Assembly (NCBI GenBank): GCA_964016885.1
Contig: OZ024740.1
Span: forward strand, 143,716,001 to 143,780,000
From: Eledone cirrhosa
Lineage: Eukaryota
Direction: 5' to 3'
Length of the DNA: 64,000 nt
Position numbers and translations under genes: made by a program. Each line of letters starts with the position of its first letter. Position 1 is the first letter of the stretch. A model generated the notes under the pieces. That model did no database searches and had not been told where the DNA came from. It worked only from the letters and a program-made list of their open reading frames with translations. Shown here one piece after another: positions 1 to 63,288 of the stretch.

Positions 1-1290
1 CGGCCTTTATGACACCATCTCATCACAGAATTTCCTAGGTCTTCCTCTTCCAAGGGTTCCTTTGACTTCAGGAGCCCTACATTTCTTTATGCAGCTGTCA
101 TCCTTCATACATATTACATGTTCATACTATCGCAATTTCTTCTCATGAACACTACACATGATGCCTCTTATGCCCAGCTTTACTCTTAGCTCATTGATAT
201 TTCATCGCTCTTATATATTACTATTATACATTCATCGGAGCATGTTCATCTCATTTCTTTCCAATCTTTGTAAGTCCTCCATACACAAAGCCAAAGTCTA
301 ACTACAATGTAGCATTGCTGTTCGTACACAAGCAGCATACAGTCTGCCATTCACTCTGAGGCAGAAACCTTTTGTAGCTAGCAGTGACAGTAGCTCCCTG
401 ACTTAACTTTTTCCAACCAGTCCTTATTCTGGCTACTGTACTTTCAGAACACCCATTCCCACTACGAATTTGATCCTCTAGATAGCAGAAACTATTGACT
501 ATTTCTAGGAAGCCCTCTGAACATTTAATAGGGCGTTTCATGTGTGCTCTTGTTACTTACTGCTTCTGTGCATTGGTTACATACAAAGCCTACATTTTTA
601 ACCTGGTGTAAAACCAAACTGCATCTTGTCTATGTTAATTCTATCCTGAATTAGTTGTGCAATAACTATTTCAGTAACTTTCATGACTTGGTTCATCAAC
701 TTGATGCCTCTTTAGTTTCCTCTGTCTAGTGTGTCTCCTTTGCCCTTGATGCTGCTATGCCAGTCATTAGGTATGACACCATCCTGTATTACTTGATTTA
801 CTATGCACATAGTGTGTGCCCCACTCAACCAGATACTTTTGGCATCTGAGCTACTATCCCTGATGGCCCAGCTGCTTTACTTGTCTTCATATCCTTCATT
901 GCCTTACTTACTACACAGTTGCTAACTTGGCTGACCAGACCCTCTGTTGAATCTGCTTGAGGCAGGCCTTCTTTCTTCTCAGCAACAATGAGGGCAAGTC
1001 AACCACTGTCATTTTGGACACAATTCTCCCCAACAACATCTTGATTTTTCCCTCACATCTTGCAATCCTGAACACCTCATGCCTATGGTCCCCACAGTGC
1101 AGAACATGCACACATTTCTTGTTTTCTGCTTTCCTCCTTCCTAAGTATACCTGTCACTTGGCTTCTCTTCTACCATCTTGATACTGTTCTCTGCTTCCCC
1201 CATTTTGCCAATCTTTCCATGTCTGTTTCTTAATTCTAACTGTCTCATCTACTCTTCTATTCCACCACCATGTCACTCTATGGCATCCAG
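1..1290 (-). mobile_element. Degenerate RTE-clade LINE relic (in intron 4 of the receptor gene; copy B at about 49720-51080)
   Basis: ORF 302-541 EIVNSFCYLEDQIRSGNGCSESTVARIRTGWKK matches the C-terminal part of RTE ORFs elsewhere in the window; many frameshifts. Confidence 0.8.
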
Positions 1291-1866
1291 GGGCCTTGTT
1301 TTGAAGTATATGGGGACAGGGAAGGTTCTGTGGTATGAGTTAATTGGATTTGGTGCCTGGGATGTAGTGAGTTTGCAGTCATATTTCTGAACATGGTGTG
1401 GTACTTCAGCCCCTTTTCTAAAATGATCTACCTCATTTATATCGCTTATCCAGATTGATCAGACAGAAAACTGTTGGTGGTGGAAAGGGGATGGAAGAGA
1501 GGTTTCTGATGAGGTTTAGGGAAGAGGAGGAGAATAGAATTTAGGAAAAGAAAGATGGCAAACATGGATAAAATAGAACAGGACAAGAGAGATCTGAAGA
1601 AGTAAATTTTAGGGAAGAAAGATGAGATAGATTGAAAACAGCAAGCAAAAATAAAATGAAATATTTATGAACAATACAAGAGAGAGAGTGAGAAATGAAT
1701 TGTAGGGAAGGAAGAAAAATGAGAAATATATAATGTATATGGCAGAATTTGCAGAAAAGAGGAGAATAGGATTTAGGAAAAGAGAGATAGCAAACATCAC
1801 TAAAAATAGAATATTCATAAGATATAAGCTTTAAGGAAGAAAGATGAGATAAGAAGAAAATATATA

Positions 1867-2567
1867 CTGTATATACTCAAATATAAGCCACCACCACCCC
1901 TATTTTATGTCTGAGAAATGAGCAAAAATCCAACTGATCAACACATTATGTTTAGATAGAATGGTTTTGAAATTCTCGTGATTATAAAATATAGTTACAA
2001 AGTTTTAATATTTTGATGTTTAAAATATAGTTTTTGTTTCACACCTCCATTGGGTAATGAGTTTCCATTACGCTAAGTTTCAACAAGTTTCTCAAATGTT
2101 TGTTTACTTCTGGCCACTCACATGCTACAAGTACTTTGAAAGCAAGAAATCAACTAAGAAAGTATTGTATTAGAATAGAAGAAGGAGGGGGTGACAGCAA
2201 GTGAGAGATGGCAATAAAATAATATTAGAAGAAAGATTTCAATTTTACAGAACATTGAAAGAAAAAGTATTATTAAGTCAGAGAAAAACATGTATGTGTG
2301 TGCACATGTGCATGTGTAATTCTGTATAAGATATTTATGTATTAAAAAATTCAAATTATAAAACTTTGTTGGAAATATTTTCATGGGAATGCATAAAAAA
2401 CACTAATGATGATGTAAATGAAGCAAAACAGTTTCATTGTAAAATAATCACTCCATATATTTTAACACCTTATTTCTGGTGAAAATCAGCAAAATATAAG
2501 CTGACACCCATTTTACCATTGATTCTTTTTGTCACATATTTATTAGCTTATATTCAAGTATATATGG
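1867..2567. mobile_element. Tc1/mariner-superfamily (pogo/Tc2-type) MITE; copy B at 51660-52357
   Basis: Imperfect TIRs ctgtatatactcaaatataagc and gcttatattcaagtatatatgg, flanked by TA. Confidence 0.65.
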
Positions 2568-3401
2568 TATATGTGACTGTGTTTGAAGGAAAAGGTGAGG
2601 GCTTACAAGAATTAGTCACATAGTGTTATGTATATGCGGATGAAGTACAGAGGATATTATATGTAATATATTCTTGATTTGTGTAATGTTTATATTTTGG
2701 TTTAATGAAATTAAGCTATATCGTCAAGCACTTATTTCAGAATATTTGCAAGCTCTTTTAGTAATGGGGAATGAACTTTGACACGGGATTGGGGATCAAG
2801 TTTCATGTGACAAGGCCTAGTTTCAAAAAGGGATTTATATCATGTTGGTATCCTCTATATAGAAATATGTATAATGAGTGTTCTACCACATTCAGACTAT
2901 AATCACTGTACTATGTCCAGCTCCACCACTTGTTCTGTTACCAATATAACAGAACTTATCAATAATATAGAAGATATCATTGTAAGCCTTGCATGTGTCA
3001 TAGTTGAAATTATGGTAACTTTCCAGATTGTCTCAATAATGTTATACCTTATGACTGTTTGAACAAGCTAAGTAACTTAAATAGAAATAAATTAAGTATT
3101 AAATGTAATAAAGTAAAAGTTTAGTCCTTGAAAATTAGTTACTGGGGAAAAATCATTTGAGCCAGTCAAAATCTCACAAAAACTTTGAAATTCACTTTTA
3201 TCATTTATTTATTGTTGTCAAACTTTTCCTTGCATTGATTATGACCAAGTTACTGACACAGTTTCACTGATAAATATAAAATGAATTTAAGTTTCTTAAG
3301 TCTCAACACAAGCTCAATCAAGTCACATACCAACCAAGTACAACTCTGAAATTAATAATGATTTCTTTAAATATTCTTTTTTATTTTACTTTCTTTCTCA
3401 G

Positions 3402-3567
3402 AAAGATCTGAAACTTACACACGAATCTGAACCTTGTAATAATCGAAGTAGTAAATTAAACCCTCCTGATGTAAAGTTAATACACCAATCAACTACACCT
3501 GGGAAAATCAAATGTGATGTCCATCTTGATAGTCTTTTACTGTTTACTGTAAATAAAGAATTTGAAT
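3402..3567 (+). CDS. Ig-like receptor exon 5, copy A
   Basis: KDLKLTHESEPCNNRSSKLNPPDVKLIHQSTTPGKIKCDVHLDSLLLFTVNKEFE; same splice sites as 53192-53357. Upstream exons would lie left of the window. Confidence 0.85.
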
Positions 3568-4009
3568 GTAAGGGCATGATTTTATCATTTTTATAAATAA
3601 TATTGGAAATTGTTTTCAAATGTTCTTTGTTTAGATATATTCACTTCTTAGAATCTGCTCCCACCATCACTGTACTCCCCCAATTCCACCCCTTCCACTC
3701 ATCACCCTGTCAAACCCCAGCACACCTATCTTATACCCATAACATATTCTCTTCACCTTTTTACTTCCTCACATCACCACTTGAAGCCAGGCATGGAACC
3801 TATCACTCTCCACCTCTTGTCACCTATATCCTTTTTACATCCTTCATCGTCTCTCCCCAAATAAGTTGAGTGATTGCATAAATGCTGCATCATTGGCTCT
3901 AAAGGACTGTAGCATTACTTCTTCACATGAAGGTAACTTAGACAAACTATAACCACTTGATTTCTTGCAGCTATTAAATAAATAACAATATATTGGTTTT
4001 CTTTTGCAG

Positions 4010-4179
4010 GCACTAGCTCTTCAGTGAAGCCTCTTACTACAATGACAGAGGATATTACTACAATGACACCTTTTACAATAGCGTCTATTTCGGGTAATAG
4101 TGCAAAATCATGCATTTCCAGAATTTGGATGGAACTTATTATTGGGATCATCATTACTGTTATCTGTTTAAGATATTAA
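4010..4179 (+). CDS. Ig-like receptor exon 6, copy A
   Basis: CTSSSVKPLTTMTEDITTMTPFTIASISGNSAKSCISRIWMELIIGIIITVICLRY*; 21 nt shorter than copy B. Confidence 0.85.
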
Positions 4180-4589
4180 AAAGTAATAGATAGAGATGGT
4201 ATGTATTATCCACTATTTTTTTGCATGAATTTGATGGGTTTTCACCCTCACAGCTTACTTTCAACTTGCTCCAACAATTTGAGATCAGCATCTCACCACT
4301 TCAGTCAAAGTCTTCCTTAGTCTTCTCTTCCACATCTTTCTTCCTTGGATTCTCTTAGTTCTTCTTGACCCAACGATCATTATGCATCAGCATCACATGT
4401 CCTTACCAGTGCAATCTTCTCTCTTGCACATTTGATTCAACTTATGCCCAGTTTTTCACTCAATTCATTTGTGCTTCATCATTCATGCATACTAACATTA
4501 CACATTCTTAAAGAGCATGTTTGATTTGTTTCTCTGCAGTCTTCACACATTCTCTGTATTCACTGCCCATGTCTTACTACAATGCTGTA

Positions 4590-5095
4590 TCACACTTAAG
4601 AGACGTGCAACCAAGCAAATACCCTCCATCAGGCATCTACCATACTCTGAATGCCTTGCTTCCCTGGGCATGGATACATTGAAGCTCCGACGTCTGGCAA
4701 TTGACTTGGTAAACACCCACAAAATTATTAACCATCTGAGCACCTTTTTGATTTCCATGTGTCTAACACACATGGGCATGCCTACAAAGTCAGAAAACAG
4801 CACAGCTCCCATGACTTTCGGAAAAAATTTTTCATGCTCAGAGTTGCTGAAGCATGGAACAAACTCTGCATCAGTTGTTAGCTGCCGAGACACAACATGC
4901 TTTAAAACCTCCATGCTTCCTGAAATTTGCCAACACTATACTTGATATCCCTCCCCCATACACATGCACACATATATATCATGACTCATACACTGTTCAC
5001 TTTCCTGGCATTTGTACATCATTCTATGTACTATAAATGCACCTTTGATGAATCGTAGTGCACCTGAGCACTGTACACAATAAATTCATTATTAT
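4590..5095 (+). mobile_element. CR1-type LINE 3' end
   Basis: LPYSECLASLGMDTLKLRRLAIDL...HKII, typical of the CR1 ORF2 C-terminus; 3'UTR ends in (att)n. Confidence 0.8.
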
Positions 5096-5105
5096 TATAT
5101 ATATA

Positions 5106-5470
5106 TAATGAAATTATTGTGTGAAGTGCTCAGGTGCACTACAACTCGTCAAAGGTGCATGTATAGTACATAGAATAATACACAAATGTCAGTGAAGTGA
5201 ATAGTGTATGAGTCATGATATACATGTGTGTATGTGTATGGAGGGGGAACATTAGGTGTAGTGTTGGCGAATCTCGGGAAGCATGGAGGCCTTAAAGGAT
5301 GCAGTGTCTCGACAGCTAACAACCGATGCAGGTAGTTTGTTCCATGCTTCAGCAACTCTGAGCGTGAAAAAGTGTTTTCGAAAGTCATGGGAACTGTACA
5401 GTTTTCTGACTTTGTGGGCATGTCCACGTGTGTTAGACACATGGAAATCAAAAAGGTACTCAGGGTTGTT
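5106..5470 (-). mobile_element. CR1-type LINE 3' end, inverted and tail-to-tail with the previous copy
   Basis: ORF 5252-5485 NTRGHAHKVRK...FFTLRVAEAWNKLPASVV. Confidence 0.85.
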
Positions 5471-5616
5471 ATATGCAGGAATCATACAATCTACGCTTCA
5501 GATGTAGAGAAAAACCCTTGTTATCAACAAATATTTCAGTGTTATCTCTTTTCTCACTATTACCTCAGACAAAGAAGAATCCATCTTTAAAAATTTATAA
5601 ATAAATTTTTTTTAAT

Positions 5617-8040
5617 GAAATCATCATCATCATTTTACGTCCGCTTTTCCCTGCTTGCAAGGGTGGGACGGGTCTTATTCAGCACAGCATCTCTCCACTC
5701 GTCACGGTCCCTCGTCATCTCCACAGTGAGCTTCAATGATCTGAGGTCTGTTCTCACCACCTCCGCCCATGTTTTTCGTGGTCTACCTCTACCACGTCTT
5801 CCTTCAACTGGCATTTCCTGGCACTTCTTCACCCATCGGTCATCCTCCATGCGCATCACATGTCCATACCACCTCAGTCTCCTCTCCCGTACACTACATT
5901 CTATCCCTCTCAGACACAGTTTCTCTCTCAACACATTTATGCTGGGTCGTTCACGCACATTTACACTGCACATCCAACGGAGCATGCTTGCCTCATTTCT
6001 CTCCAGCCGTCGCATATCCTCTGCGGTTGCTGCCCATGTCTCACTACCATGCAGCATCGCGCTCCTCACACAGGCATCATACAACCGGCCTTTCGTACGC
6101 AGGGAGAAACCCTTCTTCGTCAACAGAGGAAGCAGCTCCCTAAACTTCTTCCAACCCGTCCTTATTCTAGATACTATGGCCTCGGAACACCCTCCACCCA
6201 TGCTAATCTGATCTCCTAGGTACCGGAAGCTATCCACCACTTCTATAGCGCCCTCTCGCATTTGAAAAATGTGTCTATCAGTGCGACTTCTACTGTCTAA
6301 TTTCGCTATACACCATATATAGCCTGATTGATGATGCGTGCAACCAGTTTAGTGCCTACGTCCCCTGATGCCTTCAGCATCTCAGCAACTATTCCCGATG
6401 GTCCGGCCGCCTTACCATTTTTCATTTCCCTAATCGCCTCTTGGACCCTATATTCGTCAATCTCAATAGCTGGTCCCTCTGTCGGATCTACTAAGGGTAA
6501 TTTCTCTCTCTCCCATTCGTTCTCCACATTCATCAGTCTCTCATAATGACATTTCCAGGCCTCCTTTTTCTGGTCATTCGTGACACTAAGTACACCGGCA
6601 TCATCCCGGACACATTTATCTCCAACAACATCCTGATTTGCATTGACACACTGCCTTGCAATGTGGAACACCGCACGCCTCTGATCTTCCCGTCGCAGAA
6701 CATTGGCAAACCTCCTACTCTCTGCCTCCCTGCGTGCTAAGTACACCTGACGTCTAGCTTCTCTCTTAGTGGCTGTATATTCTTCCCTACTCCCACCCTT
6801 TTTCCAAGCCTTCCATGCTAGTCTTTTGTCTCTAATAGCCTTATCTACTGTGCTGTTCCACCACCAGGACACTCTCTGTCTGGTTGGAGCTCTGCTCCAG
6901 CCACAGGTTTCATCAGTAGCCTGCAGCAAGTTGTCACGTAAGAACTTCCAGTTATTATCTATGTCATACGTCTCTAAATTGTCTTCTTTTTCGTCATATA
7001 CATCTTGAAGGGCTTTCCTAAATTTGTATTTTAGTGAAAGGTCTTTTAGCTTCCAGACCTTTCTTCTCCACACCTTCCTATATGTCTCATTCTATCTCTT
7101 GCTTACTGAGATATCACTAACAGCTAACCTATGCTGTGGGGTACATTCTTCCCCAGGGTATGCCTTGGTATTAGACACTATCTGCCTGTCCCGCTGCCTA
7201 ACTAGCAGGAAGTCAATCTGGCTTATGTGCTCACCAGATTTGTAGGTTATTAGGTGATTGGCAGGTTTCTGGAAGTTTGTGTTGCAAATAGTCAATGTAC
7301 TCGCATCACAAAATTCAAGAAGTCTCACTCCTTCTTCATTTCTTGAACCGTAACCGTGCCCACCATGTACCCCAGTGTAACCATCCTGGAGCTGTCCAAC
7401 ATGACCATTGAAGTCTCCTGCTAGCATAACGATGTCTCCGTCCTCTGTCATTGTGGTTGTTTGCAAAAGTTGCTCATAAAAGCAGTCTTTCTCATCTTTG
7501 CCTAGGCCTGCTTGGGGAGCATAGACCGAGATGATTGTCAGTAGTCTCCTACCTACAACTAATCTAAGCTTAATTATTCGATTACTAACTCGAACTACCT
7601 CTATTGTCTTATTGATCCATTTCTCAGCCAGGAAAATGCCTACTCCCCCTAACTCATCATCATTACCTACCCAGAATAGCTTATAGCTAAGACGCTTGCC
7701 TACAACTAGTCTCGCAGAGGCACCTCTCCATCTCACCTCTTGCACGCAGCACACATCCACCTGCCTTCTCTCCAGCATCTCTGCTATTTCAGCAGATCTA
7801 CCTCTGAGAGTGCCAACATTAAGTGTTGCAACTCTGAGATGCGACGTCTTCATATTTTCCTATGCTGTTTTGTTGCTGTGCTGATAAGCTTTTTGGCATT
7901 GATACACTGGTTGGATGCCCTTCCTAACACCAGCGCCACTTTACAGCATGGACTGGGTGCTTTTATTTGTGCCACCAGCACTAGAGAGGATGTCTTACTA
8001 GACTCAAGGGCCCTCTCTACCCCTCCATTTTACAGCATGG
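5617..8040 (-). mobile_element. RTE-clade LINE with internal deletion of the RT core (copy B about 55440-57590)
   Basis: APE endonuclease ORF 7092-7853 (TLNVGTL, VQEVRW, GDFNGHVG, QIDFLL); in-frame linker ORF 6306-7073; C-terminal ORF 5635-6261 (RRLRWYGHVMRM); (gat)n tail at about 5620-5632. No YADD region. Confidence 0.92.
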
Positions 8041-8106
8041 TCATTAAAAAAAAAAAAAAAAAAAAAAAAAATTATTGACATGACTCACACACCAATACTC
8101 ATGCAT

Positions 8107-8760
8107 TGGCTGCTTCAATTGTGATGACTGAACTTTGGATTCCAGGTTGTACCCATATGCTCATATCTCGTCTCTAGTTATCACAATATTCAGGAACTCA
8201 AAATCCTTGTTAGCAGTATCCAGCAGGTCCAGTGCAACTTCAAGATGAAGTTTTGTTGCTCCCGAGAAAGCAACTTGGGCACAAATTTTGCTGCTATTCT
8301 GCACATGACCAAATCCTTTCTTAAAATTGCATATGCAGAATTTTTACTGATCACAGCCTTCATCACAAATTTCCCACACTGTCAAATGATGATTCTTCAT
8401 TATCAAGTTCTGCACTTTCTCAATAATAACTGCCTTTCGACCTGTTCTACCATTAGTAACCTGCATGTTGAATTTTACAAATTATTTCTGCTTGGATATA
8501 TTTTGGAGAAAAATTTGATACAAGCTCATTGCTGTTCTGTCAGCATGAACAAAATTGAAATGGCTCAACAAAAATCATGCAGCTCCATTTTGCATGCTTT
8601 TGTCTCCCTAACATCACTACTTCTCACAAGAAAAAATAAGTGTGATATGGTTTTGACAAACATTACATATAGTTTCATAATATTCATACAAATTTTGATA
8701 ACTCATTTTGTTATTCATTTTTGTTAATTTCAGGTCACTGCAAAGACATAAGGAATGCTT
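8107..8760 (-). mobile_element. Mariner-type transposase relic (longer in copy B, about 58330-59460)
   Basis: Minus strand gives a ...RIAAKFVPKLL-like motif at about 8270-8310; copy B adds an SPDIAPxDFWCFPK-like motif at about 58480-58520. Confidence 0.6.
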
Positions 8761-8882
8761 AAAGACTTTTTAAATAAAGACTTTTTAAATAACTGTGTTT
8801 TAGTTACTCTCAATTCTTGAATAATCTGGTATGGGTGTCCCGTTTACTTGTTCCAGCCATCCGGCTGAGGCGACCGCAGATT

Positions 8883-8987
8883 ATCTATATCTATATACTA
8901 CTAAAACTCTGTGATTGCTTGCTTGCCTGTAATACATTACAAAAAAGCTGAAGTGAACGTGACCCAACGGTTCACGGGTGGTCTAGT
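8883..8987 (+). mobile_element. Short Helitron/Helentron-like non-autonomous element
   Basis: Starts (a)tctatat..., has a subterminal hairpin-like region cgtgacccaacggttcacg, ends ctagt. Confidence 0.5.
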
Positions 8988-10348
8988 ATAATATAAAAGA
9001 GAGATATTTATTAGTTGGTTGAATCACACAAAAACTACACATACATCTAAAGAAAGAGAGAGATAGGCCATTATACAGTGAGAGATACAAGTGTTAAATA
9101 TTCAGAGAGAGAGAGTGACATCCCACAAAAGTATAGAATCAGCTTAAACTATAGATGCTTTGATCCATAAGAAGGTTTAACAATATTGCATTAGCTTTTA
9201 TAAAGTAGTTTTACAGTCTTTGATTTTACAGAACAAAGAAAAATTGATATTTGAAATTAATCTACCCTCTAGCTTGTATCCATATACTACTTACAGTCTG
9301 TACTAACGGAGCAACACTTCAGAAGCAATGGTGCGTTTCAGATGACGTCCTTTGGAGCTGAAAAAGATCATACTGACTGGTTATTTCACATTTAAAATCC
9401 AAGGCCAATGCTACCATTTAATCAGCAGTTTACTCCTCCATCTAATCCATGCTAGCGTGGAAGAACGGACGTAAAACGGTGATGATGATGATGATCTACA
9501 CAGTTTTGGTTACTAATTATCATCTGCAGTAGCATTTAATATCCACTTTCCATGCTTGTGTTGGTTAGACAGATTGTCACGTTATGAGACAAGACAGGTC
9601 AAGTAACCAGGACTGGATTTAGACCATGGGGGTACCCCCTTCCTTACACAAAATGCAAAAAACTGACCAATAATACATAAATATAATAGAGATACATACA
9701 TAGACATTAAATGGAAATATACATAATATATACACAATAGGTAAATGTTAAATATTATATATAAATGTAGACATATTAGTGTCAGAGCTGGTACAAAGAT
9801 TTTCGCATATATGTACTAGAGGTTTTGGCCAAAGCGTATCAAACCACCATAATGTGGTTAAATGCATCTATCAATGAAAATCTATCGTTGCCTAAACTAA
9901 GTACAGTAAGTTATATCTACATATTCAGAACACTGCTCTCTACATCCTGTAGGGAGAGAGCACTTAGTATTTTGTGGGTCATAATGATTGTCAGTTAAAT
10001 CTTTATGAGTGCTAATTTGCTGAATGATCTCTCTCCTGAACTCTTTACTATCAAATATATCATAAGAACTATATCAACACTTGGAAAGGTATCAGCAAGC
10101 CAATCATAGAGTAACACTGCCTGTTGAGATGGCATGAGACATGACCTGAAAGTTTTAATCAAGGAATTGAATATATTTTAACCATAAACCCTGTAATTTT
10201 GACATGTACTATATTTCTAATCTGAAGAGAATGATGCATTCATCCCACAGAAAGATGAGCCTTTGTAATTTAAACTTGTATAAGGAAGAAAAAAGGGAAT
10301 AAAAAGAAAATTTATTGTATATAAACTTTGTTGCACTTACTGACATTA

Positions 10349-10686
10349 CATCATCATCATCATTTTACGTCCGCTTTTCTCTGCTTGCAAGGGTGGGACA
10401 GGAACTGATTCTGGCTTGATTTCTACAGCTGGATGCCCTTCCTAACACCAACCTCATTTACAGTGAGTGCTGGGTGCTTTATTGCCATGGCACCTCCAAG
10501 ACCACTTTGCAGTGGAATGATATGGACCCCAGTCCCTATCATCTCATTTCTACAGCTGAGTAAACTGGAGCAATGTGAAATAAAGTGTCTTGCTCAAGGA
10601 AACAACACATCACCCAGTCTGTGAATTGAACTCACAACCTTATGATTGCAAGGCCAATGCTCTAACCACTAAGCCATGTGCCTCCA
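10349..10686 (-). mobile_element. tRNA-headed SINE with bipartite RTE-derived body and tail (copy B about 61043-61380)
   Basis: Minus strand has A box TGGCTTAGTGG, B box GAGTTCAATTC and a V-like ccttgagcaagacactt domain. It then matches the RTE 5'UTR (7905-7975) and the RTE 3' end (5620-5670) with a (gat)n tail. Confidence 0.75.
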
Positions 10687-11599
10687 CTACACATGTTTAA
10701 ATTTTAGAATATAGGCCTTGTTTTGAGCAAAGTATGAGATTTCTAAAAAAAAACATCCCTAAACTAATAAAAAATGAAAATCTGCAGTTCAAACACAGCA
10801 TCAAAGTTTCAAATCCTTTTGAGAGATGTCTGGGAGAAATAGAGACAGATTTACCACAGTATTTAAGTAGTTTATTCTCACCTCCACTCTAGAAGAGAGA
10901 TTTTTCAATGTTCTTTATACGTTCATAGCAGACAGTTCTCCATTTTCCAGTCAGCAGCTAGGGCTTCAAACAAAGTAAGATATGTTCCCTGATTTAAAAT
11001 TGTACTTCAGTTTGTCTTTTTATCTGAATAATAGTCTGCTTACATTACTTGCACCATTATGAAGTTGACTGTATAACAGTACCTTGGGTGTGCTGTCGTC
11101 AATCATACATAGAACATGACCAGCCCATATATATATATGTGTATAATCATTGATATATATGTATACTGAACCTTAAGGACATCAAAGCACATGTATATAG
11201 AGTGAGTCTGCAGTGCTGAGACCGGGGAGTCCACTAATCATGAGAGTGTATATATATATATTTATATTTGAAAAAGGAGTAAGGTTCTATACAAAACAGG
11301 TTATAGAGAAAAAGTAGGATTGGAAACAGCACAGGAAATAACGGGAAATAAATTTAAAGAATCTGGGTTTTTTTTACTTCTTTGATCCGTCAATTTGAAA
11401 AATGTACTGTCAATGTACTGTCTTAGCTATAAAGATGTCATAATGTGTATAAATAATAGAATTATGTCCCTCTTTAAGAAAACAAGAATAGTATAAAAGT
11501 AAAAACCCAATTTATATAATAAATATGATTTTCAAAAGAAACAAATCAATAAAAATCAGTCAATGAAAAATAACAGAAAGCACACTTAATGACAAACTA

Positions 11600-11970
11600 C
11601 AACATAAAATGCTGGTATTGCCCTCTAAAAATGTTTGAGGCAAGCCAAGACAGCATTACTGAGAGTGATAGTGAGGCTAAGATGCTGGAATAGCCAAGTG
11701 TCCTTATGAACATCATCTGATAATTAACTGTCAACGGCCCAGCTTCCCTTAACATTCTCAAATGTTACAAGCTAAAAATGTCATTCACTGATAAATCACA
11801 GTATTTCAGTAATTCATTCTGTTTATGAAAAGATATAACAACATTAGAAGATATTTCCTTGTGACTTTTATGAACAGTATAATACTTTTCAAATTGAAAT
11901 GGTTGATATGTTATATTTGAAAACCCAGAGTCGACAGTTACATGTGATATAAAGAAAATTAAAGATTTAA
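11600..11970 (-). mobile_element. Degenerate 3' (restriction-like endonuclease) end of a CRE-type non-LTR element
   Basis: Shares tgctggaatagccaag...cttatga.catca with 49170-49215; ORF tail LKYCDLSVNDIF. Confidence 0.45.
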
Positions 11971-12589
11971 TGAACATAAGTAATTTGAAATTGCTAATCA
12001 ATATTAATTCTATTCTCCACCACAATCTGAAGTCAGTGATTAATCAGATTGTAATAATACATGTCTATGTATTTAGTTTTGTTTTAGATCTTTTATCTAA
12101 AAATATTTTAATATATCGTTTGTAGTAACTTGTGTTTGGGTGACACTTCATCTGTAGTAAGACTATCCAAGCAGTTAAATATTTAATAACTTTTGAGAGA
12201 GAAACACTTTAGAAATGTTTACCAGTATTATTAGACTTCCATTAGCAGAAACTAACTTTTCTATATAATCATACATAATAGTTTAGAGAATGATCTAAAA
12301 TAAGCTTATTGATTTATCTCATTGTTTAATCACTAATTTCAAATTTTGTAGCTTTGGTTAGATGTTCTACATATTAAATGATAATATAATAATTTAAGAG
12401 TAAACCAGATTTATTAAAATTACAGGTTACTAAAATTTATTCTAAAAGAGTGATGCAGTAAAAACTAATGATTCAGAGCCTCACAGCTGAGACGACAAAA
12501 GGTTGAGGAAATGTGGTGATATCATTTAAGACAGATATGTCTAACTAATACTATTGATGTAGTCATTCTTCTGTAGTAATACAGACATG

Positions 12590-13460
<871 letters not shown>

Positions 13461-13974
13461 TAGCACAACATGGATACTTTTTTTGTTTTAATGAAAATAT
13501 TCCTCCTACTGTATTTTCAACAACTGGTTTTTGTTGACATTTGAAGATGGTTACAAAAACTTTTACAAGTTTAATTAGAATGCATAATCATTTTGTATAC
13601 ATTTCCAGACTGTAGAAGGGAAATGTTGCTATTAATCCCTGAGTAGAAAATATTTCATTGTAATTCTACCAGAGATTTATATAAACAGGGCTATATCTTC
13701 CTTTAGTCTTTAAATGATAAATATTGATGATGTATTTCAAATACCAAAAAATTCTGTTATGCCAATATCATCTGAAATTCTGAAATAATAGAAAAACAGA
13801 ATAAGATATAAAAGATACTGAAAGTGAAGATTTAACAGTGAAAATGTTACTACATTTCTCATTTCTATATTAATAAACTGTAGATATAAATCTTTAACTG
13901 AACAATTGAACTTTACTTTTTAATTTATTACAAAAATTACATCATACAATTTTGTTTAGTGTTTACATATTTGT

Positions 13975-20310: not shown

Positions 20311-20450
20311 TTAAATGAGATATACGGAAAAGGAAAACCATGGCACAAATAGACATGTGCAGAAGATATTCTAAAAGGGGAGATAACTCACGTTAGATCG
20401 ATGCATGGAGGTAACTGCAAAAGATCAGAATACAATCATTCATGATACTC

Positions 20451-34901: not shown

Positions 34902-36075
34902 CTATCTATATATATAAAACTGAGGATGTGTGTGTGTATGTGCATACCCACATAACTTCCACAGTTTGCAACCGACTTTCTTCAAATTTGGAACAAACAT
35001 GCATTATGTTCCCAGGAGTGTTTTGGACTCATAAAATTTCAAGTTTTTGTCTAATGTGGCCCCTAGATAAATATTAGTTGGTTGCATGAAAACTACACAC
35101 ATACATATACATCTAAAGAGAGAGAGAGAGAGTGAGATAGGCCGTTATACAGAGAGAGATAAAGATATTCAGATAGAGAGAGAGAATGGCGACGAACGCT
35201 GGTTTACACACGCACACACATAAAGAGAGAGATATCTGTGCGTTCTTGATTGTTCTTCATTCTGTAGAGAAAGAGAGAGAAAGATAGAGAGGGTATGAGA
35301 AAAAAGAGAGAGAGGGGTTCAGAAAGAAAGAAAGATTGTAGGGGGTTGGGGAGGGAAGAAAATGATAGCAGCGTTCAATAACTTTAACTTTTATTTATTT
35401 ATTTATTCTTTAGAAACTAAAAAAAAGAATCAATCTGTGGACACAGAAGTAAATATTTTTTTAAATGTTACAACCGAAGGAAACCAGGAAGATAATACTT
35501 TCGTTCGTGAAGATGTTCCCTGGCAATAAATGGGAAAAAAGCGAGGATAATTATGTCGTTGTGTGGGGTGATGAGAACAATGTCTTGCAAAGACAAAAAC
35601 ACATTTATGGTTTAAATGGAGATGTTAGACTTATATTCTATTTAGAATAACTGGATGATTCTCGGCTCCGGAGTTTAAGAATAATGTAAATAAAGTTGTT
35701 AAACGGAAATGACAGAGGTTATTAAAATAGTAAAAGTAAATAATTGTTTTTACCTTTTGGCACAAAGCCAGAAATTATTCCAGTGTATACTGGTACTTTA
35801 TTTTATCGACCCCGTAAGGATGAAAGGCAAAGTTAACCTCAGCGGGATTTGAACTCAGACCATAAAGAGCCGTAACCCTTTGCTGCAAAGCATGGCGTCA
35901 GGCTCTTTACCGATACTGCCAATCCTCCGATTTAGGCCAGTGCATAAATATGCGCTGACGCATACATACGCATCATACATATATATATACACACACAAAT
36001 ATACTTATATGAGCAGCCAGTTTGAACAGAAAAAGATGAGAGAATTCTGGTCAGATATGGTTGGTTTATGCTAGT
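34902..36075 (+). mobile_element. Helitron-like non-autonomous element with a nested SINE (35741-35930)
   Basis: 5' tctatatatataaaac plus (gt)n; 3' ...tttatgctagt; internal part similar to 9010-9120. Confidence 0.5.
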
Positions 36076-41667: not shown

Positions 41668-41707
41668 ATGAAGATTCTACCACTACTCTATTTGCTGGCA
41701 ATGACTT
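41668..41707 (+). CDS. Ig-like receptor coding exon 1 (signal peptide MKILPLLYLLAMT)
   Basis: Acceptor ttcattttttcag ends 41664, ATG at 41668, donor gtaagt at 41708, phase 1. Confidence 0.8.
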
Positions 41708-44700
41708 GTAAGTGATTTATCACCATCACCATCAACATCATCATCACCGTTTTACATCTGCTTTTCTATGCTTGCATGGGTTGGAAGTGTCTTTTCTAGC
41801 ACAACCTCCTTCTACTCATTGTGGTACTTCGTCATCTCTGGTACCTTCAGCAATTTCAGATGAGCACTCAAAACCTCTGCCCTGATCTGCCTTGGACGCT
41901 TAATGCAGCTTTCTTCCACTGGCATTTGTGCATCCAAACGGAAGACGGGTAAATTCGTATATTCGGCCACAGGCTTCGAATGCAGTCAACTTAAAGTCGG
42001 AAGATTTGATGGGTATTTGGTGATAAGCTGCCTTTAGATCTATTTTCGAGAAATATTTGTGTTTTGAAATTTTGTTGAGTAGGTCTTCGATTATGGCTTT
42101 AGGGTATGAATCTAATGGTGTGTAACGATTTATAGTGCCTGAGTAGTCTATGACAAGCCTTTTTTTGTTTTCTTGATCTATTACGAAACACTGCGCTCTC
42201 CATGGGCTTCTGCTCTGTTGAATTATTCCAGCTTTAAGCATTCTGTCGATTTCCGTTTTAATGAATTGCTGATCTTTATTGTATTTTCGAGGAGGTATAG
42301 ATAATGGTTTTAATTTTGTAGTATCGATTCCAGGCATTAAATCATATTCTTCACAATTCAGAGTTTGCATTGACATACATATCGTGACTGCTCTCATGTC
42401 CCCTGCATATTTTATTGTTAAAGACTTATGCCTTTTAAGTATATCAAGAGCCATAACTACTGGAGCAAAGAGTTTGTCAACCACCATTAGATCGATGTGG
42501 TATTCTCGGCCCTCCCATTCTAATGTTGTTTCAAATGTACCTCGTATTATGAGTTTACTGTTGTCGGCTAAAATTACACTCTTATTCTTAGTTTTCTTGA
42601 ATTTACTTCGACAAGTGGTTCATGTCAATGAAAGACTTGTCTGAGCCTGTGTCAAGTAAACCTTCTGTTTTATGTGAATTGACATAAATTGTTAAAAAGT
42701 TTGTATTATGATTCACGGAAGCAAGTTTATAGCAGGCAGCAAGATTACTGCCATCATTGGAGCCCTCGTTATTATTCAAGACTGCTGCGTGTTTTATCTT
42801 CTTTACTACCTTCTTATTTTCAACAAAACATACTGTTGCCCAGTGGCCTTTCTTGTGGCAGAAATTGCAAGTTGAATTTTTTGCAGGGCACTCTGATTTT
42901 TGGTGACATGTACCACCACACCAGAAACATTTTAATGAAGAAGCAGCGAATACGGGTTGTGACGGCGGTTGTATTGTTGTTGTTGACAGATTTTGTGCGT
43001 CTTCTATTGCCAGTTCTAATGTGAGAGCGGTTTGGAATGTTTTATCTAGATTTTTGAAACTCCTACCTGTATCTTGAATACATCACTAAACTCATTACCT
43101 GCTCTCATTTTACTGACAGCACCTTTGTACATAGCTTGCATGGCTCTCATAACCCACTCATCTACACCCAGCTTCCTTAAGGACCACCAGATAACAGATC
43201 AATGTATAATTCTCTCTACAAGTATTAAATGTGTTATTATTCTAACAAAAGTAGAAATCCAGTTTTTCTTATCTGTAATTCAGCAACAAGCCTTTTAAGA
43301 CCATTTTCCTTGCTATATTAAGGGTTATCCCTTCATGGCATCCTTTTTGAGGCAATATTTTACAGCCACATTCCCTTCCTGTTGAAACCTCTTTTAGTCA
43401 CCTCTTACAACACACATGGTTATGTAAAATCTGAAAATATATTTTCATCTTTTATAGATATATCAATGGTCAATGCAAAGCTTAACATTGAAGCAAATGG
43501 TAATTGTATTATAAAAATCTTTGATTTTAAAACCAGATGCTATCTTTTCTACTCTGCTTTCTGCTTCTTTCTCATAGTTAATAATCTTTAGTCACTAAAT
43601 ATATTTCCTCCTTTGAATGGGCAAAATTTCATCTTCAGAGCCCAAAAGACAATAATGATTATAAATATGATTGTGATTATAATATTGATTGTAGTAATAC
43701 AAACTGTTATCTTAAAATATCAATTTGACAAAACTGTAGAAAGTAACTAAAGACTATTTAGTAAAAACAAATGTATATATATATATATATATATATCAGC
43801 AGCAGCAGCAGCACTTAACATCTATTTTCCCTACTTTTGAGGATTGAATAGGTCGTTATAGAATAAGTCAGTACTTAATTGAAGCCAATAGCCTCTCAAC
43901 AAGTCAGGTATCACATCTCACTTACATACATTCCTGAAATGTACATGTAACAGATGCATTTTATCATGGCACCAGCTCTAGAGGGGTTTTTGTACCCTTG
44001 ATAAAACTGAAGAGGCCTCACAACTCTTTGTTGGCCCAGTTTTCTATGACTGAATACCCTTCCTATCACCAACCACCTTATAGAATGTACTGGCTGGTTT
44101 TCTCATGTTGCCAACACTAGAGAGGTTTTCATGCCCTTAACACAACTGAAGCGTCCTCTTGACCCTTTTTTGGTGTGGTTTTTCCAGCTGGACACCTCTC
44201 CTATCACTAACCACCTTACAAAGTGTACTGACTGCATCTTTTGTGGCACCAGCACTAGGGCAGTAGTCACAGTGTAGTCCTACAGATGGAAGCTCTTCCT
44301 AACACTAACCACTTTGATGGGGGAGGTAAGAAGGATGATGTATATATGTGCACACACATACATATTACATATATGAATACATGTTCAGAATTCTGTACAT
44401 TTTTGGAGACACTTGTGATCTGTACATAAGTTGGTATAACATGTGAGTAATGTAGCATGTCATCAGGGTCATGGTCCTTGAAAGACTTTCAGTTGTCTCC
44501 AATGGTAACATGACACAAGATGATTAAAACTTAAGGATCTGCTGCAATATCTTCCGTCTTCTTCATCATTATGTGAGTTAATTTAACACCTGCTTTATCA
44601 CTATTGAAGATTGAAGACAATGAAACGCATTTAGTCTGAATCCTCACCCTCAACTTTGCAATCTTTAAAGACCCTACTAGGAGGACAAACCTTCTGATGA

Positions 44701-47332
44701 CATCACTGTCAAGGTCTGATGAACATGCAAGCTTCTCCACCACATCATAGTAGATCTCTCATTCAATTTCTCATTAGTTCTGATAATCTTTATTATATAT
44801 TTTTACTTTTAATTTCCATTATAAATATATCAAAGCTGATAAAAACTTAAACTTAAATCAATAAATTTAATATATCTATTTCAGGAACAATTTGGTTAGG
44901 GGAAGAAATAACTCTTAAAACTCCAATCAGTGCTAATACTTCGGCTATTACATGGAAAAGTGAAGGAAGGAATTTAGTATGTGACAAAAGTTGCGGTGGG
45001 AATGAAGACTACAAAATTACTAGGGGAAATGGTTTATCTACCCTTTGGATAAGAAATGTTTCTTGGCAATATCGTACATGGACAGTTATTGAAAATGATT
45101 TGGAAACTGATGACTTCACTATGGATATAAATGGTAAGGAAATAATTTCTGATGATAATAATCATGGAGCAAGTATTTTATGGTGTTAAATCAAAGTCAA
45201 CATTTGTATTTTAATGATTTATTTTCTATCTTGAATTGTAATATTTCTGTAATATATAATAATGTGGGATAGTTAACTAAATGAACTGGTTAGATTAACC
45301 CCTATGTCCTTGTTCTAATATCTTGACCACATTTCCAATAATTAGGTGTCTATATTACCACTTAATTGTTATATGGTTGACAATCTTTCGGTATCTTCTA
45401 ATATCTTAATCACATTCCCAGTGGTCACTTATCTAATGTTATATAACCCCTATAAAATAAGCTAATTTGTCAGACTGCCATATTTGTGTTAAAAATGTTT
45501 GTTTTTTGAAATTCAGATGTTATGTTGATTTTATTTTTTTTTTTTTTTTTATATAGAATTTTAAATAATAACATTCTTATTCCTTTTCTATCTCTAAGAA
45601 TGATTCCACATTCCTTAGTACAGATGTATTGGAAGGTTTTATCTCTGAATGGTTTAGAAATCATATAAACACAAATTTAGCAGTATGTCTTATTTTATAT
45701 AGTTTTCACAGAATTTTTAATCTCATAACTTGTTTGGTTTTAATATTGCAGTGAACTTTGTATATTTTCTGTTAGCCATGTGATGTTATAGACTATTTCC
45801 AACTCTCCTTATTTTCTGATAACTTTTTCTTGGAGTTGAAAACTGTGAAAACAACCACACATTAAGAAGACCCGCTTAACATTTGCAGAGATAGGAGAAA
45901 TCAATCTAAATATACCTACAGACTAACAAAGAACAGTCTGTCTGAGGAACAATTTGTCCTCTATATATGATTATATACACTTACAGACTGATGAGGATTC
46001 TTTGTTACTAAAATATACATAAAACAACTTTATACTGATATTATTCTTGTTTTTTTTCTTTCCTTTTTTCAATTCTTGAAATGACAAAGAAATTGGTCTT
46101 ATTTTTCATTGATCAGAACCTTTTTCCAAATTCTCACTGCAAACAAATCTATTGTAACCAAATCTTGACAATACAGTGTGGGAATAAAGAATCTGTAAAT
46201 TAAAAAAATAGCTTGTGGTAGCAATAATAATAAAGGCTTACCTTGCTTCCAGAATTCACTTAGAGGAATTTTTAATAGCAGCTCTTTCATGCTAAACAGC
46301 TTAAAACACCACACTTTTCTGTGAGTCTCACACTCACATACACACGCAACCATACTTTGAAAAAAATTCTATGTTGAAAGAGGATTGGAGTTCTGTTCCT
46401 TCACTAACCTGGCACTATTTCCCTCTCATACTTCTGGCTCTTAACCCACAATACTACATACATTTTAAAAGACGGTATCATAGAAGCAACTAATTCATTA
46501 TCGCTGGCAGGGCCTATGAGAGGGGGTCCAACTAGTACTTTGTTCCGGGGGCCCAAGACCTAAGAAGGCCCCACAGCAACCATGCAACATCCATTTTGAG
46601 AATTTGCCTGCTTCAGAGCAAAATTTCTCCTGGAAGCCCTGATCGCAGGCACAGTTTTTTCTTTGGCAATTTCAGTATTGAAAAGTCTTCTAGTAGATGT
46701 TTCTCAAATGAGATGGAGGTGGGTGCAAATATTCTAAAATGCTGCTATTCGCACCAGAAATCAACATTCTCTGTTAACTGTTCTCTCTCATTTTCTGCAT
46801 CATCATCATTGAACAGCCATTCTCCCTGGTAGCAAGTGTTGGACAGGTTATTACAGAATGAGTCAGTGCTCAAGTAGAGCTACTGACCTCTCAGATGGGT
46901 CAGAGGCCCACATCGTGCTTACATATATTTCCATACTCTATAGAGTGCACTTTATTGTGGCGCCAACATTAGAAAGGTTGTCATGACTTTGACACTGCTG
47001 AAGAAGCCTCTCAACCCTTTATTTGACCAGTTTTCTATGACTGAATACCTTTCCTATCACCAACCACCTTTCAAAATGTACTGAGTTTGTTTAATTAAGT
47101 CACCAACACTAGAGAGGTTGTACCTTTGACGTAACGGAAGAATTCTTTTGACTCTTTTTAACACGGTTTCTATGACAGGATTCTCTTCCTATTGCCAACC
47201 AAGTCACAGGTTGTACTGGGCGCATTTTTTGTAGCACCAACATTAAGGAGGTTATTGGTAATTGAGTTAACTGAAGATCCCTCTCTACTCTATGGGAGGG
47301 GATGTTAAAAAGGATGGTAAGTATAATGCATG

Positions 47333-53300: not shown

Positions 53301-54002
53301 AATGTGATGTCCAACTTGATAGTCTTTTACACTTTACTGTAAATAAAGAATTTGAATGTAAGGGCATGATTTTATCATTTTTATAAATAATATTGGAAAT
53401 TGTTTTCAAATGTTCTTTGTTTAGATATATTCACTTCTTAGAATCTGCTCCCACCATCACTGTACTCCCCCAATTCCACCCCTTCCACTCATCACCCTGT
53501 CAAACCCCAGCACACCTATCTTATACCCATAACATATTCTCTTCACCTTTTTACTTCCTCACATCACCACTTGAAGCCAGGCATGGAACCTGTCACTCTC
53601 CACCTCTTGTCACCTATGATATACCTAATATCCTTTTTACATCCTTCATCGTCTCTCCCCAAATAAGTTGAGTGATTGCATAAATGCTGCATCATTGGCT
53701 CTAAAGGACTGTAGCATTACTTCTTCACATGAAGGTAACTTAGACAAACTATAACCACTTGATTTCTTGCAGCTATTAAATAAATAACAATATATTGGTT
53801 TTCTTTTGCAGGCACTAGCTCTTCAGTGAAGCCTCTTACTACAATGACAGAGGATATTACTACAATGACAGAGGATATTACTACAATGACACCTTTTACA
53901 ATAGCGTCTATTTCAGGTAATAGTGCAAAATCATGCATTTCCAGAATTTGGATGGAACTTATTATTGGGATCATCATTACTGTTATCTGTTTAAGATATT
54001 AA
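41668..54002 (+). CDS. Spliced gene with 6 coding exons (786 nt, 261 aa): putative GPI-anchored two-Ig-like-domain cell-surface protein
   Basis: Exons 41668-41707, 43458-43499, 44885-45133, 47401-47498, 53192-53357, 53812-54002; all GT-AG with polypyrimidine tracts, phases 1,1,1,0,1 join without stops. Protein: MKILPLLYLLAMTYISMVNA-KLNIEANGTIWLGEEITLKTPISANTSAITWKSEGRNLVCDKSCGGNEDYKITRGNGLSTLWIRNVSWQYRTWTVIENDLETDDFTMDIN-VKPTIHFEIKPNCDYKIKTTCSKPKAVIKCLYGKDLKLTHESEPCNNRSIKLNPPGVNLMQQSTTPGKIKCDVQLDSLLHFTVNKEFEC-TSSSVKPLTTMTEDITTMTEDITTMTPFTIASISGNSAKSCISRIWMELIIGIIITVICLRY*. Confidence 0.85.
41921..43060 (-). mobile_element. Gypsy (Mag-like) gag-protease-RT fragment without LTRs
   Basis: Double knuckle CFWCGGTCHQKSECPAKNSTCNFCHKKGHWATVC; protease LLDTGSDKSFI; RT SPWRAQ..RLVIDYS..FSKIDLKAAYHQI..RLPFG. 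Confidence 0.9.
43458..43499 (+). CDS. Ig-like receptor coding exon 2 (42-nt mini-exon YISMVNAKLNIEAN)
   Basis: Acceptor ttcatcttttatag, donor gtaatt; phase 1-1. Supplies the VNA signal-cleavage site and avoids the TGA that direct exon 1-3 joining would create. Confidence 0.75.
44885..45133 (+). CDS. Ig-like receptor exon 3 (V-like Ig domain lacking the canonical B-F cysteines)
   Basis: Acceptor ctatttcag, donor gtaagg; 249 nt open, phase 1-1; motifs GEEITL, ITW, STLWIRNV. Confidence 0.88.
47401..47498 (+). CDS. Ig-like receptor exon 4 (first half of domain 2)
   Basis: Acceptor tattttgcag, donor gtaagt; phase 1-0; VKPTIHFEIKPNCDYKIKTTCSKPKAVIKCLYG. Confidence 0.85.
49130..49580 (-). mobile_element. 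CRE-type restriction-like endonuclease 3' relic
   Basis: ORF 49292-49573 GLSRVNGKRLIRLTL.P.AKSRCVLWGTTVSDAFAPH....KY resembles the G.RPDG.TL.PW..G...WD.TV.D RLE motif. Confidence 0.65.
53192..53357 (+). CDS. Ig-like receptor exon 5, copy B (second half of domain 2)
   Basis: Acceptor ttctttctcag, donor gtaagg; phase 0-1; contains GKIKCDV, an F-strand-like motif. Confidence 0.88.
53812..54002 (+). CDS. Ig-like receptor exon 6, copy B (Thr-rich stalk plus GPI-signal-like tail)
   Basis: Acceptor ttttcttttgcag, phase 1; stop TAA at 54000-54002; small-residue SGNSA followed by a terminal hydrophobic stretch. Confidence 0.85.
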
Positions 54003-63000: not shown

Positions 63001-63288
63001 TATTGATTTATCTCATTGTTTAATCACTAATTTCAAATTTTGTAGCTTTGGTTAGATGTTCTACATATTAAATGATAATATAATAATTTAAGAGTAAACC
63101 AGATTTATTAAAATTACAGGTTACTAAAATTTATTCTAAAAGAGTGATGCAGTAAAAATTAATGATTCAGAGCCTCACAGCTGAGATGACAAAAGGTTGA
63201 GGAAATGTGGTGATATCATTTAAGACAGATATGTCTAACTAATACTATTGATGTAGTCATTCTTCTGTAGTAATACAGACATGTGTAG

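What the first reader, a model, noticed from the sequence alone, without database searches (positions are those of the whole stretch)
3402..3567. Hypervariable exon: 8 substitutions, 7 amino-acid changes, none silent, in otherwise near-identical duplicates
Comparing 3402-3567 with 53192-53357 gives differences at 3451, 3469, 3476, 3482, 3485, 3524, 3541 and 3542. These produce S>I, D>G, K>N, I>M, H>Q, H>Q and L>H. Several are third-position changes yet still non-synonymous. All fall within 92 bp, while I see only about 4-5 substitutions in the preceding 3.4 kb, and the cysteines are untouched. This pattern fits diversifying or balancing selection on a ligand-binding face, or exon-limited gene conversion from a diverged paralog. 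It holds whether the two copies are paralogs or alleles.
Basis: partly seen in the sequence, partly recalled or inferred. Interest (0 to 1): 0.9.

Follow-up and report, generated by a model that had tools for sequence, protein, structure and literature searches.

The report
Fast-evolving octopod Ig surface-protein array
The flagged exon belongs to an uncharacterised gene, likely from an octopus-like animal, that sits in nine near-identical tandem copies and is predicted to encode a two-immunoglobulin-domain cell-surface protein; the copies differ almost only by amino-acid changes in the predicted outer part, likely because selection, probably from a pathogen, keeps the variants different.

Summary
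Observation confirmed: 8 substitutions and 7 amino-acid changes, against 4 substitutions in the preceding 3.4 kb. "None silent" is not significant by itself. The density is (scan p 3e-4).

The exon is coding exon 5 of a six-exon gene present in nine intact tandem copies. Four intact intronless paralogues and two broken ones lie on another contig. The product has a signal peptide, two predicted Ig-like domains, a Ser/Thr stalk and a GPI-like tail; named relatives are uncharacterised cephalopod proteins.

Across nine copies, 30 of 555 ectodomain sites vary against 91 of 10,819 intron sites, and 24 of 25 variable codons change the residue. Exon 5 is not significantly more variable than exons 2-4. 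Between the two arrays omega is 2.25 in the ectodomain and 0.08 in signal plus tail. Exon 5 has moved between sibling copies; no diverged donor was found.

One class of copies gained three N-glycan sequons and lacks an alternative splice acceptor that drops the stalk. Positive selection with exon-scale conversion is well supported. The driver is unknown: pathogen about 45%, gamete about 30%. Stacked haplotypes in the assembly are not excluded.

The parts
3402..3567 (+). Coding exon 5 of array copy 8 (copy A, high-glycan class): second half of the membrane-proximal Ig-like domain; the flagged exon
   Evidence: AG/GT ends, phase 0 to 1, open frame; aligns to the intronless paralogue
4010..4179 (+). 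Coding exon 6 of copy 8: Ser/Thr stalk, GPI-like or membrane tail, stop; G at 4092, so no internal AG acceptor
41668..41707 (+). Coding exon 1 of copy 9: start codon and first part of the signal peptide
43458..43499 (+). Coding exon 2 of copy 9: end of signal peptide and first strand of domain 1
   Evidence: GT..AG joint to exon 3 in run X2
44885..45133 (+). Coding exon 3 of copy 9: N-terminal Ig-like domain; 11 variable sites of 249 across nine copies; four changes in 10 nt found only in copy 9
   Evidence: joints on both sides, and the copy-9 letters, in run X2
47401..47498 (+). Coding exon 4 of copy 9: first half of domain 2; 6 variable sites of 98
   Evidence: joint from exon 3, and exon-4 letters as the loose end before 53192, in run X2
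53192..53357 (+). Coding exon 5 of copy 9 (copy B); identical to exon 5 of copies 5 and 7
   Evidence: joints to 53812 and 53917 in run X2
53812..54002 (+). Coding exon 6 of copy 9: stalk with one more 21-nt repeat unit than copy 8, tail, stop
53915..53916 (+). Alternative AG acceptor that depends on the synonymous A at 53915; its use removes the 105-nt stalk in frame
   Evidence: joint 53357>53917 in run X2; present in copies 1, 4, 5, 7, 9, absent in 2, 3, 6, 8
35074..35200 (+). Tentative untranslated first exon
   Evidence: similar to the sequence just upstream of the start codon in the intronless paralogue; low-complexity, weak donor, no joint seen: unverified
1..13597 (+). Part of the tandem unit shared inside the window with 49794-64000 (about 99% identical)
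   Evidence: unit map of the array

Best explanation
The exon is part of a spliced six-exon gene in nine tandem copies whose predicted two-Ig-domain, likely GPI-anchored surface protein is likely under positive selection across its whole outer part, with variant exons likely moved between sibling copies by gene conversion, and the selecting partner is most likely a pathogen or parasite adhesin. Steps: (1) shown: nine intact copies, near-identical introns, ectodomain differences almost all amino-acid changing, signal peptide and tail conserved. (2) Predicted: two Ig-like beta-sandwich domains (model of a paralogue). (3) Inferred: unequal crossing-over and conversion keep the units about 99.5% alike, while selection favours and preserves distinct ectodomain classes, so one animal displays several surface variants. 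(4) Inferred: variants also change glycan cover (3-4 against 6 sequons) and height above the membrane (repeat number in the stalk, stalk-less splice form), as expected of escape from a binder. (5) Untested: the binder. Odds: steps 1-3 about 0.85; pathogen as driver about 0.45.
For: Array and intact frames. Splicing at the predicted GT..AG junctions in run X2 and not in X1 or X3. Variable sites 30 of 555 in exons 2-5 against 91 of 10,819 in introns, p 7e-14 treating sites as independent; piN/piS 3.3-4.5 in the ectodomain, 0 in the signal peptide, 0.2-0.3 in the tail. 24 of 25 variable ectodomain codons change the residue. The copy 2/3/6/8 partition is marked by 7 ectodomain sites and 4 intron sites; the copy 5/7/9 partition by 4 exon-5 sites and no intron site. 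Codon ML (own GY94 code): copies 1, 9 and one intronless paralogue, ectodomain omega 2.25 (p 0.01), signal plus C-terminus 0.08 (p 0.001); intronless array domain 1 omega 5.0 (p 0.018). Conversion: copies 1 and 5 differ at 4 of 10,819 intron sites and 0 of 389 in exons 2-4 but at 7 of 166 in exon 5; copy 9 shares exon 5 with copies 5 and 7 despite 35 and 28 intron differences; Rm 16 over 71 informative sites. Three sequons gained in one class, polarised by the intronless paralogues; P 1.5e-4 as gains, 0.015 as losses, both post hoc. Fold: pLDDT 83; best matches butyrophilin Z 11.7 (rmsd 4.9, 180 aligned), CD58 Z 11.2 (5.3, 161), CD48 Z 10.7 (5.3, 159), tied within 1; Foldseek E 8e-8.
Against: Coding-only tests inside the nine-copy array are borderline: omega 2.9, p 0.077 (7 of 9 copies; 3 and 6 dropped as near-identical to 8); exon 5 alone p 0.07; binomial P for 2-4 silent changes in 32 runs from 0.004 to 0.17. 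Silent-site density may also be above the intron level (p 0.02-0.34). Domain 2 of the intronless array shows no excess (omega 1.7, p 0.48). An intronic 166-nt stretch holds 8 variable sites, so clusters also arise outside exons. Recombination breaks the single-tree assumption of the codon tests. No GPI predictor was available. The model is of a paralogue 41-50% identical over the two exons compared, not of the window's protein. Nothing identifies the tissue or the ligand; three intronless loci point to germline transcription, which favours the gamete rival. The array order resembles a-b-c-d then a-b-a-c-d, so two haplotypes stacked by the assembler are not excluded; depth was not calibrated.
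Confidence: 0.6

Rival explanations
1. Same selection and conversion, but the protein is a gamete or reproductive-tract surface protein, and sperm competition or sexual conflict drives the change.
For: Three separate intronless loci imply germline transcription, since retrocopies must arise there (established knowledge). Omega above 2 over the whole ectodomain and a near-identical tandem array are typical of reproductive genes (recalled). A Juno-like gene has dN/dS above 1 between two octopus species (PMC13669787, passage).
Against: Broadly expressed genes also retropose. Several classes are kept side by side rather than one sweeping. No listing of relatives in one O. sinensis gonad supplement, which is weak since that file may not use these identifiers.
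Confidence: 0.3
2. It is a self or individual identity marker that binds like to like, as Hydractinia Alr proteins do; the set of variants gives each animal a surface signature.
For: Alr genes are clustered, atypical Ig proteins with positively selected domains and exons shuffled by conversion; one to a few substitutions change specificity (PMC9546547 opening part; PMC8282982 passages). The classes here differ by 13-15 ectodomain residues.
Against: No cytoplasmic tail and no Fn3-like spacer. Many variants on one chromosome suit breadth better than a private identity. Polymorphism between individuals is untested.
Confidence: 0.12
3. No selection for diversity: the exons were overwritten from a diverged donor (a paralogue or a cDNA), or are local mutation hotspots in redundant, relaxed copies.
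For: The gene does retropose. Multi-base changes occur (codons 58, 190; intron 45442-45444). One intronic cluster of 8 sites.
Against: A donor would bring silent changes too; none was found in the assembly. Relaxation gives omega near 1, not dN 0.34-0.44 against dS 0.14-0.22 between the arrays. All 9 frames and coding-exon splice sites are intact, and signal and tail are conserved. The intronless array shows the same excess in domain 1.
Confidence: 0.08
4. Assembly artefact: consensus errors, or two haplotypes stacked in tandem so that some 'paralogues' are alleles.
For: Unit pairs 1/5, 2/6, 3/8, 4/9 are each other's nearest or near-nearest matches, 0.8-3.8 mismatches per kb.
Against: No gaps in 664 kb; units 1, 5 and 7 are all alike, so at least some duplication is real; both exon states and the copy-9-only letters occur in run X2. 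Stacking would change the copy number, not the amino-acid excess.
Confidence: 0.05

Closest known systems
Uncharacterised cephalopod proteins (e.g. O. bimaculoides LOC106876057, LOC106876058, LOC106868859; O. sinensis LOC115225115, LOC115210431; Argonauta GAB1602944.1; a distant Sepia protein)
   Same: Sequence relatives, 26-38% identical, E down to 5e-31; same Trp and Cys pattern; signal peptide, Ig-like domains, hydrophobic tail
   Different: Domain number varies from one to four and several have cytoplasmic tails or more than one membrane segment; none has a described function in the searches made
CD2/SLAM family, especially CD58 and CD48; butyrophilin/B7 ectodomains
   Same: Two-domain Ig fold match, Z about 11; GPI-linked forms of CD48 and CD58 are recalled
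   Different: 7-18% identity; only a weak, out-of-register profile hit to CD2 (E 0.04-0.19); a shared fold, not shown orthology
Vertebrate CEACAM/PSG cluster
   Same: Tandem Ig surface genes, copy-number variation, excess of non-synonymous variation, pathogen and reproductive roles (PMC3628338 abstract)
   Different: CEACAMs are absent from lamprey and invertebrate chordates by that abstract; no sequence link found here
Hydractinia Alr1/Alr2 family
   Same: Clustered atypical Ig genes, positive selection, exon shuffling by conversion (PMC9546547, PMC8282982)
   Different: Alr proteins are transmembrane with three Ig domains, an Fn3-like spacer and a tail; homophilic binding is shown for them and untested here
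Biomphalaria polymorphic transmembrane clusters (PTC)
   Same: Molluscan clusters of polymorphic surface genes tied to parasite resistance (PMC7494358, title and start of abstract only)
   Different: No homology tested; a functional analogy only

Membership tests
Immunoglobulin superfamily | Ig-like beta-sandwich fold | tested here: met
   Model of the intronless paralogue, pLDDT 83, two all-beta domains; the listed VIA and Foldseek matches are dominated by Ig-domain proteins
Immunoglobulin superfamily | Canonical B-F disulfide and Tyr-x-Cys motif in domain 1 (motif recalled) | tested here: not met
   Domain 1 has an invariant Trp and a Cys-x3-Cys pair but no Cys in the predicted B or F strand; atypical IgSF members lack such motifs (PMC9546547)
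Immunoglobulin superfamily | Match to a curated Ig profile | tested here: inconclusive
   Exon 3 against I-set E 0.063; best relative 23.6 bits against a cut-off of 23.7; Atlas neighbours at 0.89-0.93 include Ig clusters
GPI-anchored protein | Signal peptide plus small-residue site, polar spacer and hydrophobic end without cytoplasmic tail | tested here: inconclusive
   Pattern present in the sequence and hydropathy; no predictor; two polar residues end the chain, so a tail-less membrane anchor is possible
CD2/SLAM family | Sequence homology to CD2, CD58, CD48 | tested here: inconclusive
   Only E 0.04-0.19, out of register; fold match tied with butyrophilins, PD-L1 and Neph1
Alr allorecognition family | Transmembrane protein with Fn3-like spacer and cytoplasmic tail | tested here: not met
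   Two domains, Ser/Thr stalk, no tail
Alr allorecognition family | Variant-specific homophilic binding | not testable with these tools
   needs cell aggregation assays
CEACAM/PSG family | Vertebrate lineage and sequence homology | tested here: not met
   18 of 20 profile hits are cephalopod-type family members by name or alignment; the other 2 (a shrimp repeat protein, a MAM-repeat protein) look spurious; none is a CEACAM
Positively selected tandem gene family | dN above the neutral rate in the ectodomain with conserved remainder | tested here: met
   borderline for coding-only tests inside the nine-copy array
Positively selected tandem gene family | Balanced or trans-species polymorphism | not testable with these tools
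   no population or sister-species coverage of the locus

The most novel reading that the evidence does not exclude
Octopods have their own germline-encoded variable surface-receptor system: a tandem array of Ig-fold proteins diversified by exon-scale gene conversion, in which linked switches set binding surface, glycan shield and stalk length together (a silent base toggling a stalk-less splice form). It would be a candidate for cephalopod immune specificity or individual recognition.
Probability: 0.2. Interest if true: 0.85.

Novelty: new variant of a known kind. Interest (0 to 1): 0.62.

Why it matters
Fast-evolving Ig surface arrays mark biological conflicts (pathogen receptors, allorecognition, fertilisation) in vertebrates, cnidarians and snails. 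My searches found none described in cephalopods, whose immune and gamete recognition molecules are largely unknown. This family gives a concrete candidate with natural variant classes, relatives in laboratory octopus species and simple first tests (tissue expression, binding by class). It also shows a synonymous change that controls a domain-spacing splice form.

Tried and rejected
Diverged-paralogue donor: none in the assembly. Word-based homologue search with the single protein found nothing; the full HMMER scan did. Single-sequence fold failed, pLDDT 37. Homodimer prediction gave no answer. No RNA holder listed among public runs; X2 was recognised as spliced only by laying it. A closer read-level look at exon 5 was not obtained, so per-allele read support stays open. 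One search was circular (the target was in the alignment) and is ignored. The intronless-array table had an indexing error and is replaced. CEACAM, Alr and Dscam ectodomains were not top fold matches, which does not exclude them. Gene identifiers of six relatives occur in no main text; four to six identifiers were not found in the readable supplements of PMC9712504 (one file unreadable), PMC11202624 and PMC13230822; the supplement of PMC13174406 could not be read and bioRxiv supplements are closed, so expression data on relatives may exist unseen. Literature searches found no description of the family. Three look-ups of earlier scan findings were empty.

Full report
1. Observation. The alignment of 3300-3700 with 53090-53490 shows exactly the 8 stated differences and no others in 401 columns. 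The window holds two copies of one unit, 1-13.6 kb matching 49.8-64 kb at about 99%. Bases 1-3401 carry 4 substitutions and one 3-nt indel. Of 52 substitutions in 12.8 kb, no other 166-nt stretch has more than 3; the scan P is 3e-4. The lack of silent changes is not significant alone (P 0.07-0.48).

2. The gene. A search of the own genome with the exon gave 10 matches: nine on contig C1 at 96-100% identity, 48-61 kb apart, and one on C2 at 71%. The C2 match lies in an uninterrupted frame encoding a 251-residue protein, which located the other exons. Copy 9 lies whole in the window: coding exons at 41668-41707, 43458-43499, 44885-45133, 47401-47498, 53192-53357, 53812-54002. The 664 kb around the window has no gap. 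All nine copies have all six exons, open frames and GT/AG ends at the coding introns. The product is a signal peptide, two domains, a Ser/Thr stalk with a 7-residue unit of varying copy number, and a hydrophobic end with no cytoplasmic tail. On C2 there are four intact intronless copies in tandem and two broken intronless loci; three protein searches found no further members (counts are lower bounds). I call them retrocopies because they lack introns; poly(A) tails and target duplications were not shown.

3. Expression. Run X2 is not labelled RNA, but its contigs skip introns 2, 3 and 5 at GT..AG, end in exon-4 letters before exon 5, and have depth about 500-1180 on exons against about 5-15 on intron pieces; X1 and X3 show none of these joints. 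X2 has both states at 53259, 53266, 53275 (one contig of depth 352 in 1178) and the four letters found only in copy 9's exon 3. The tissue is unknown, and contig depth is no measure of expression. A second joint, 53357 to 53917 (depth 480 against 559), uses an AG whose A is the synonymous difference at 4092/53915; it removes the stalk in frame. Copies 1, 4, 5, 7, 9 have this acceptor, copies 2, 3, 6, 8 do not.

4. Relatives and fold. HMMER over 1.84 billion representatives gave 20 hits. I looked up 19 of them plus one further hit: named ones are uncharacterised proteins of Octopus, Argonauta and, distantly, Sepia; two are unnamed; one is a shrimp repeat protein; the hit not looked up is a MAM-repeat protein. 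The organism is therefore likely an octopod (inference). A model of the intronless paralogue's ectodomain, from a 23-row alignment, has pLDDT 83 and two all-beta domains. It matches two-domain Ig ectodomains: butyrophilin Z 11.7, CD58 11.2, PD-L1 11.1, CD48 10.7, all tied, rmsd 4-5 over 159-180 residues; domain 1 alone aligns at rmsd 2.2-3.1. Foldseek agrees (E 8e-8). Exon 5 covers the second half of domain 2. By strand alternation the residues at 3469, 3476 and 3524 would face outward; this is inference without coordinates.

5. Selection. Across nine copies, variable sites per kb are 24, 44, 61 and 72 in exons 2-5 and 7-12 in introns (30 of 555 against 91 of 10,819). Of 25 variable ectodomain codons 24 change the residue; in exon 5 all 10 do. 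piN/piS is 3.3-4.5 in the ectodomain and 0.3 or less in signal and tail. Codon likelihood tests with my own GY94 code: nine-copy array omega 2.9, p 0.077 (7 of 9 copies); exon 5 p 0.07; signal plus tail 0.15, p 0.01; intronless array domain 1 omega 5.0, p 0.018, domain 2 1.7, p 0.48; between arrays 2.25, p 0.01, against 0.08 for signal plus C-terminus. Between arrays dN is 0.34-0.44 and dS 0.14-0.22, while the 3' flank is 88% identical. So the excess recurs in two arrays and at two time depths. Against: the within-array coding tests are borderline, sites are not independent, recombination affects the tree-based tests, and one intronic stretch (51032-51164) holds 8 variable sites in 166 nt.

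6. Conversion. Of 2,485 pairs of informative sites 708 fail the four-gamete test, Rm is 16, and neighbouring sites are more compatible than shuffled ones (p 4e-4). Copies 1 and 5 differ at 4 intron sites and none in exons 2-4, but at 7 in exon 5. Copy 9 has the exon 5 of copies 5 and 7, while sites at 52851 and 53799 group it apart from them, which bounds a tract under 950 nt. The copy-B residues do not match the intronless paralogues. Conversion thus shuffles variants among siblings; it does not import them from a distant donor found in this assembly.

7. Classes. Copies 2, 3, 6, 8 form one class: ectodomain exons within 2 differences of each other, 6 N-glycan sequons against 3-4, no stalk-less form. 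Their three extra sequons are derived relative to the intronless paralogues, and one needs two changes. Chance is 1.5e-4 as gains and 0.015 as losses; over all variable sites P(4 or more toggled sequons) is 0.04. These tests were made after seeing the pattern.

8. How it likely works. Unequal crossing-over and conversion keep the units alike; selection on the exposed ectodomain favours new residues and keeps classes distinct; one genome then displays several variants differing in surface, glycan cover and height. Glycan gain and coexistence of classes fit escape from, or broad capture of, a foreign binder, so I put a pathogen or parasite first (about 0.45). Retroposition and whole-ectodomain omega above 2 fit a gamete protein (0.3). 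Like-to-like identity marking is third (0.12). No call identifies tissue or ligand.

9. Caveat on the assembly. Intergenic parts pair up as 1/5/7, 2/6, 3/8, 4/9 at 0.8-3.8 mismatches per kb. This fits a block duplication, or two haplotypes stacked. Depth was not calibrated. Under stacking, some contrasts are between alleles, and the amino-acid excess stands.

10. Comparison and novelty. It works like the CEACAM/PSG cluster (PMC3628338, abstract), Hydractinia Alr genes (PMC9546547, first 10,000 characters; PMC8282982, passages) and snail PTC clusters (PMC7494358, listing only). It is a member of none by the features tested; it is an atypical Ig-fold family so far seen only in cephalopods. Searches found no description; PMC13669787 (passages) treats single-copy orthologues and showed no mention in the passages seen. 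GPI forms of CD48 and CD58, and typical omega of reproductive genes, are recalled, not looked up. Verdict: real, selected, an undescribed variant of a known kind of system; interest 0.62.

Noticed in passing
window 53915 / 4092: A synonymous A/G difference decides whether an in-frame alternative acceptor exists that drops the whole stalk; it is fully linked to the high-glycan class across nine copies.
   Followed up: partly
window 53836-53891: 21-nt stalk repeat; copy 9 has one and copy 4 two more units than the other seven copies.
   Followed up: yes
window 44969-44978: Four substitutions in 10 nt (three residues) found only in copy 9 and present in the X2 contig; no donor seen among paralogues.
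   Followed up: partly
L071-L074 (G000:C2:173.85-173.87 Mb): Four intact intronless paralogues in 7.5-kb tandem units, with selection concentrated in domain 1 (omega 5) and gain or loss of cysteines near the Cys-x3-Cys pair; expression not checked.
   Followed up: partly
L084/L086 and L085: Two broken intronless copies, about 70% identical to both arrays, possibly from another parent gene.
   Followed up: partly
window 51032-51164: Intronic cluster of 8 variable sites in 166 nt across the nine copies, half of them shared by copies 2 and 6; unexplained.
   Followed up: no
window 12567-13374, 15518-16013, 63261-63755 (minus strand): Short, partly broken C2H2 zinc-finger repeat arrays carried in the tandem unit.
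   Followed up: no
window 5591-7859 and 55414-57407 (minus strand): LINE-like element with endonuclease and reverse-transcriptase-like frames downstream of the gene, broken differently in the two copies and absent from some units.
   Followed up: no
window 20440-22519: About 2-kb degenerate tandem repeat with a 50-nt unit.
   Followed up: no
window 4736-5463: Two copies of a repeat element in inverted orientation just 3' of the gene (86% match to the other copy's reverse strand).
   Followed up: no
P0001, P0006, P0011, P0013 (Octopus relatives): Relatives carry two to four tandem copies of domain 1 and many annotated isoforms, suggesting domain-number variation across the family.
   Followed up: no
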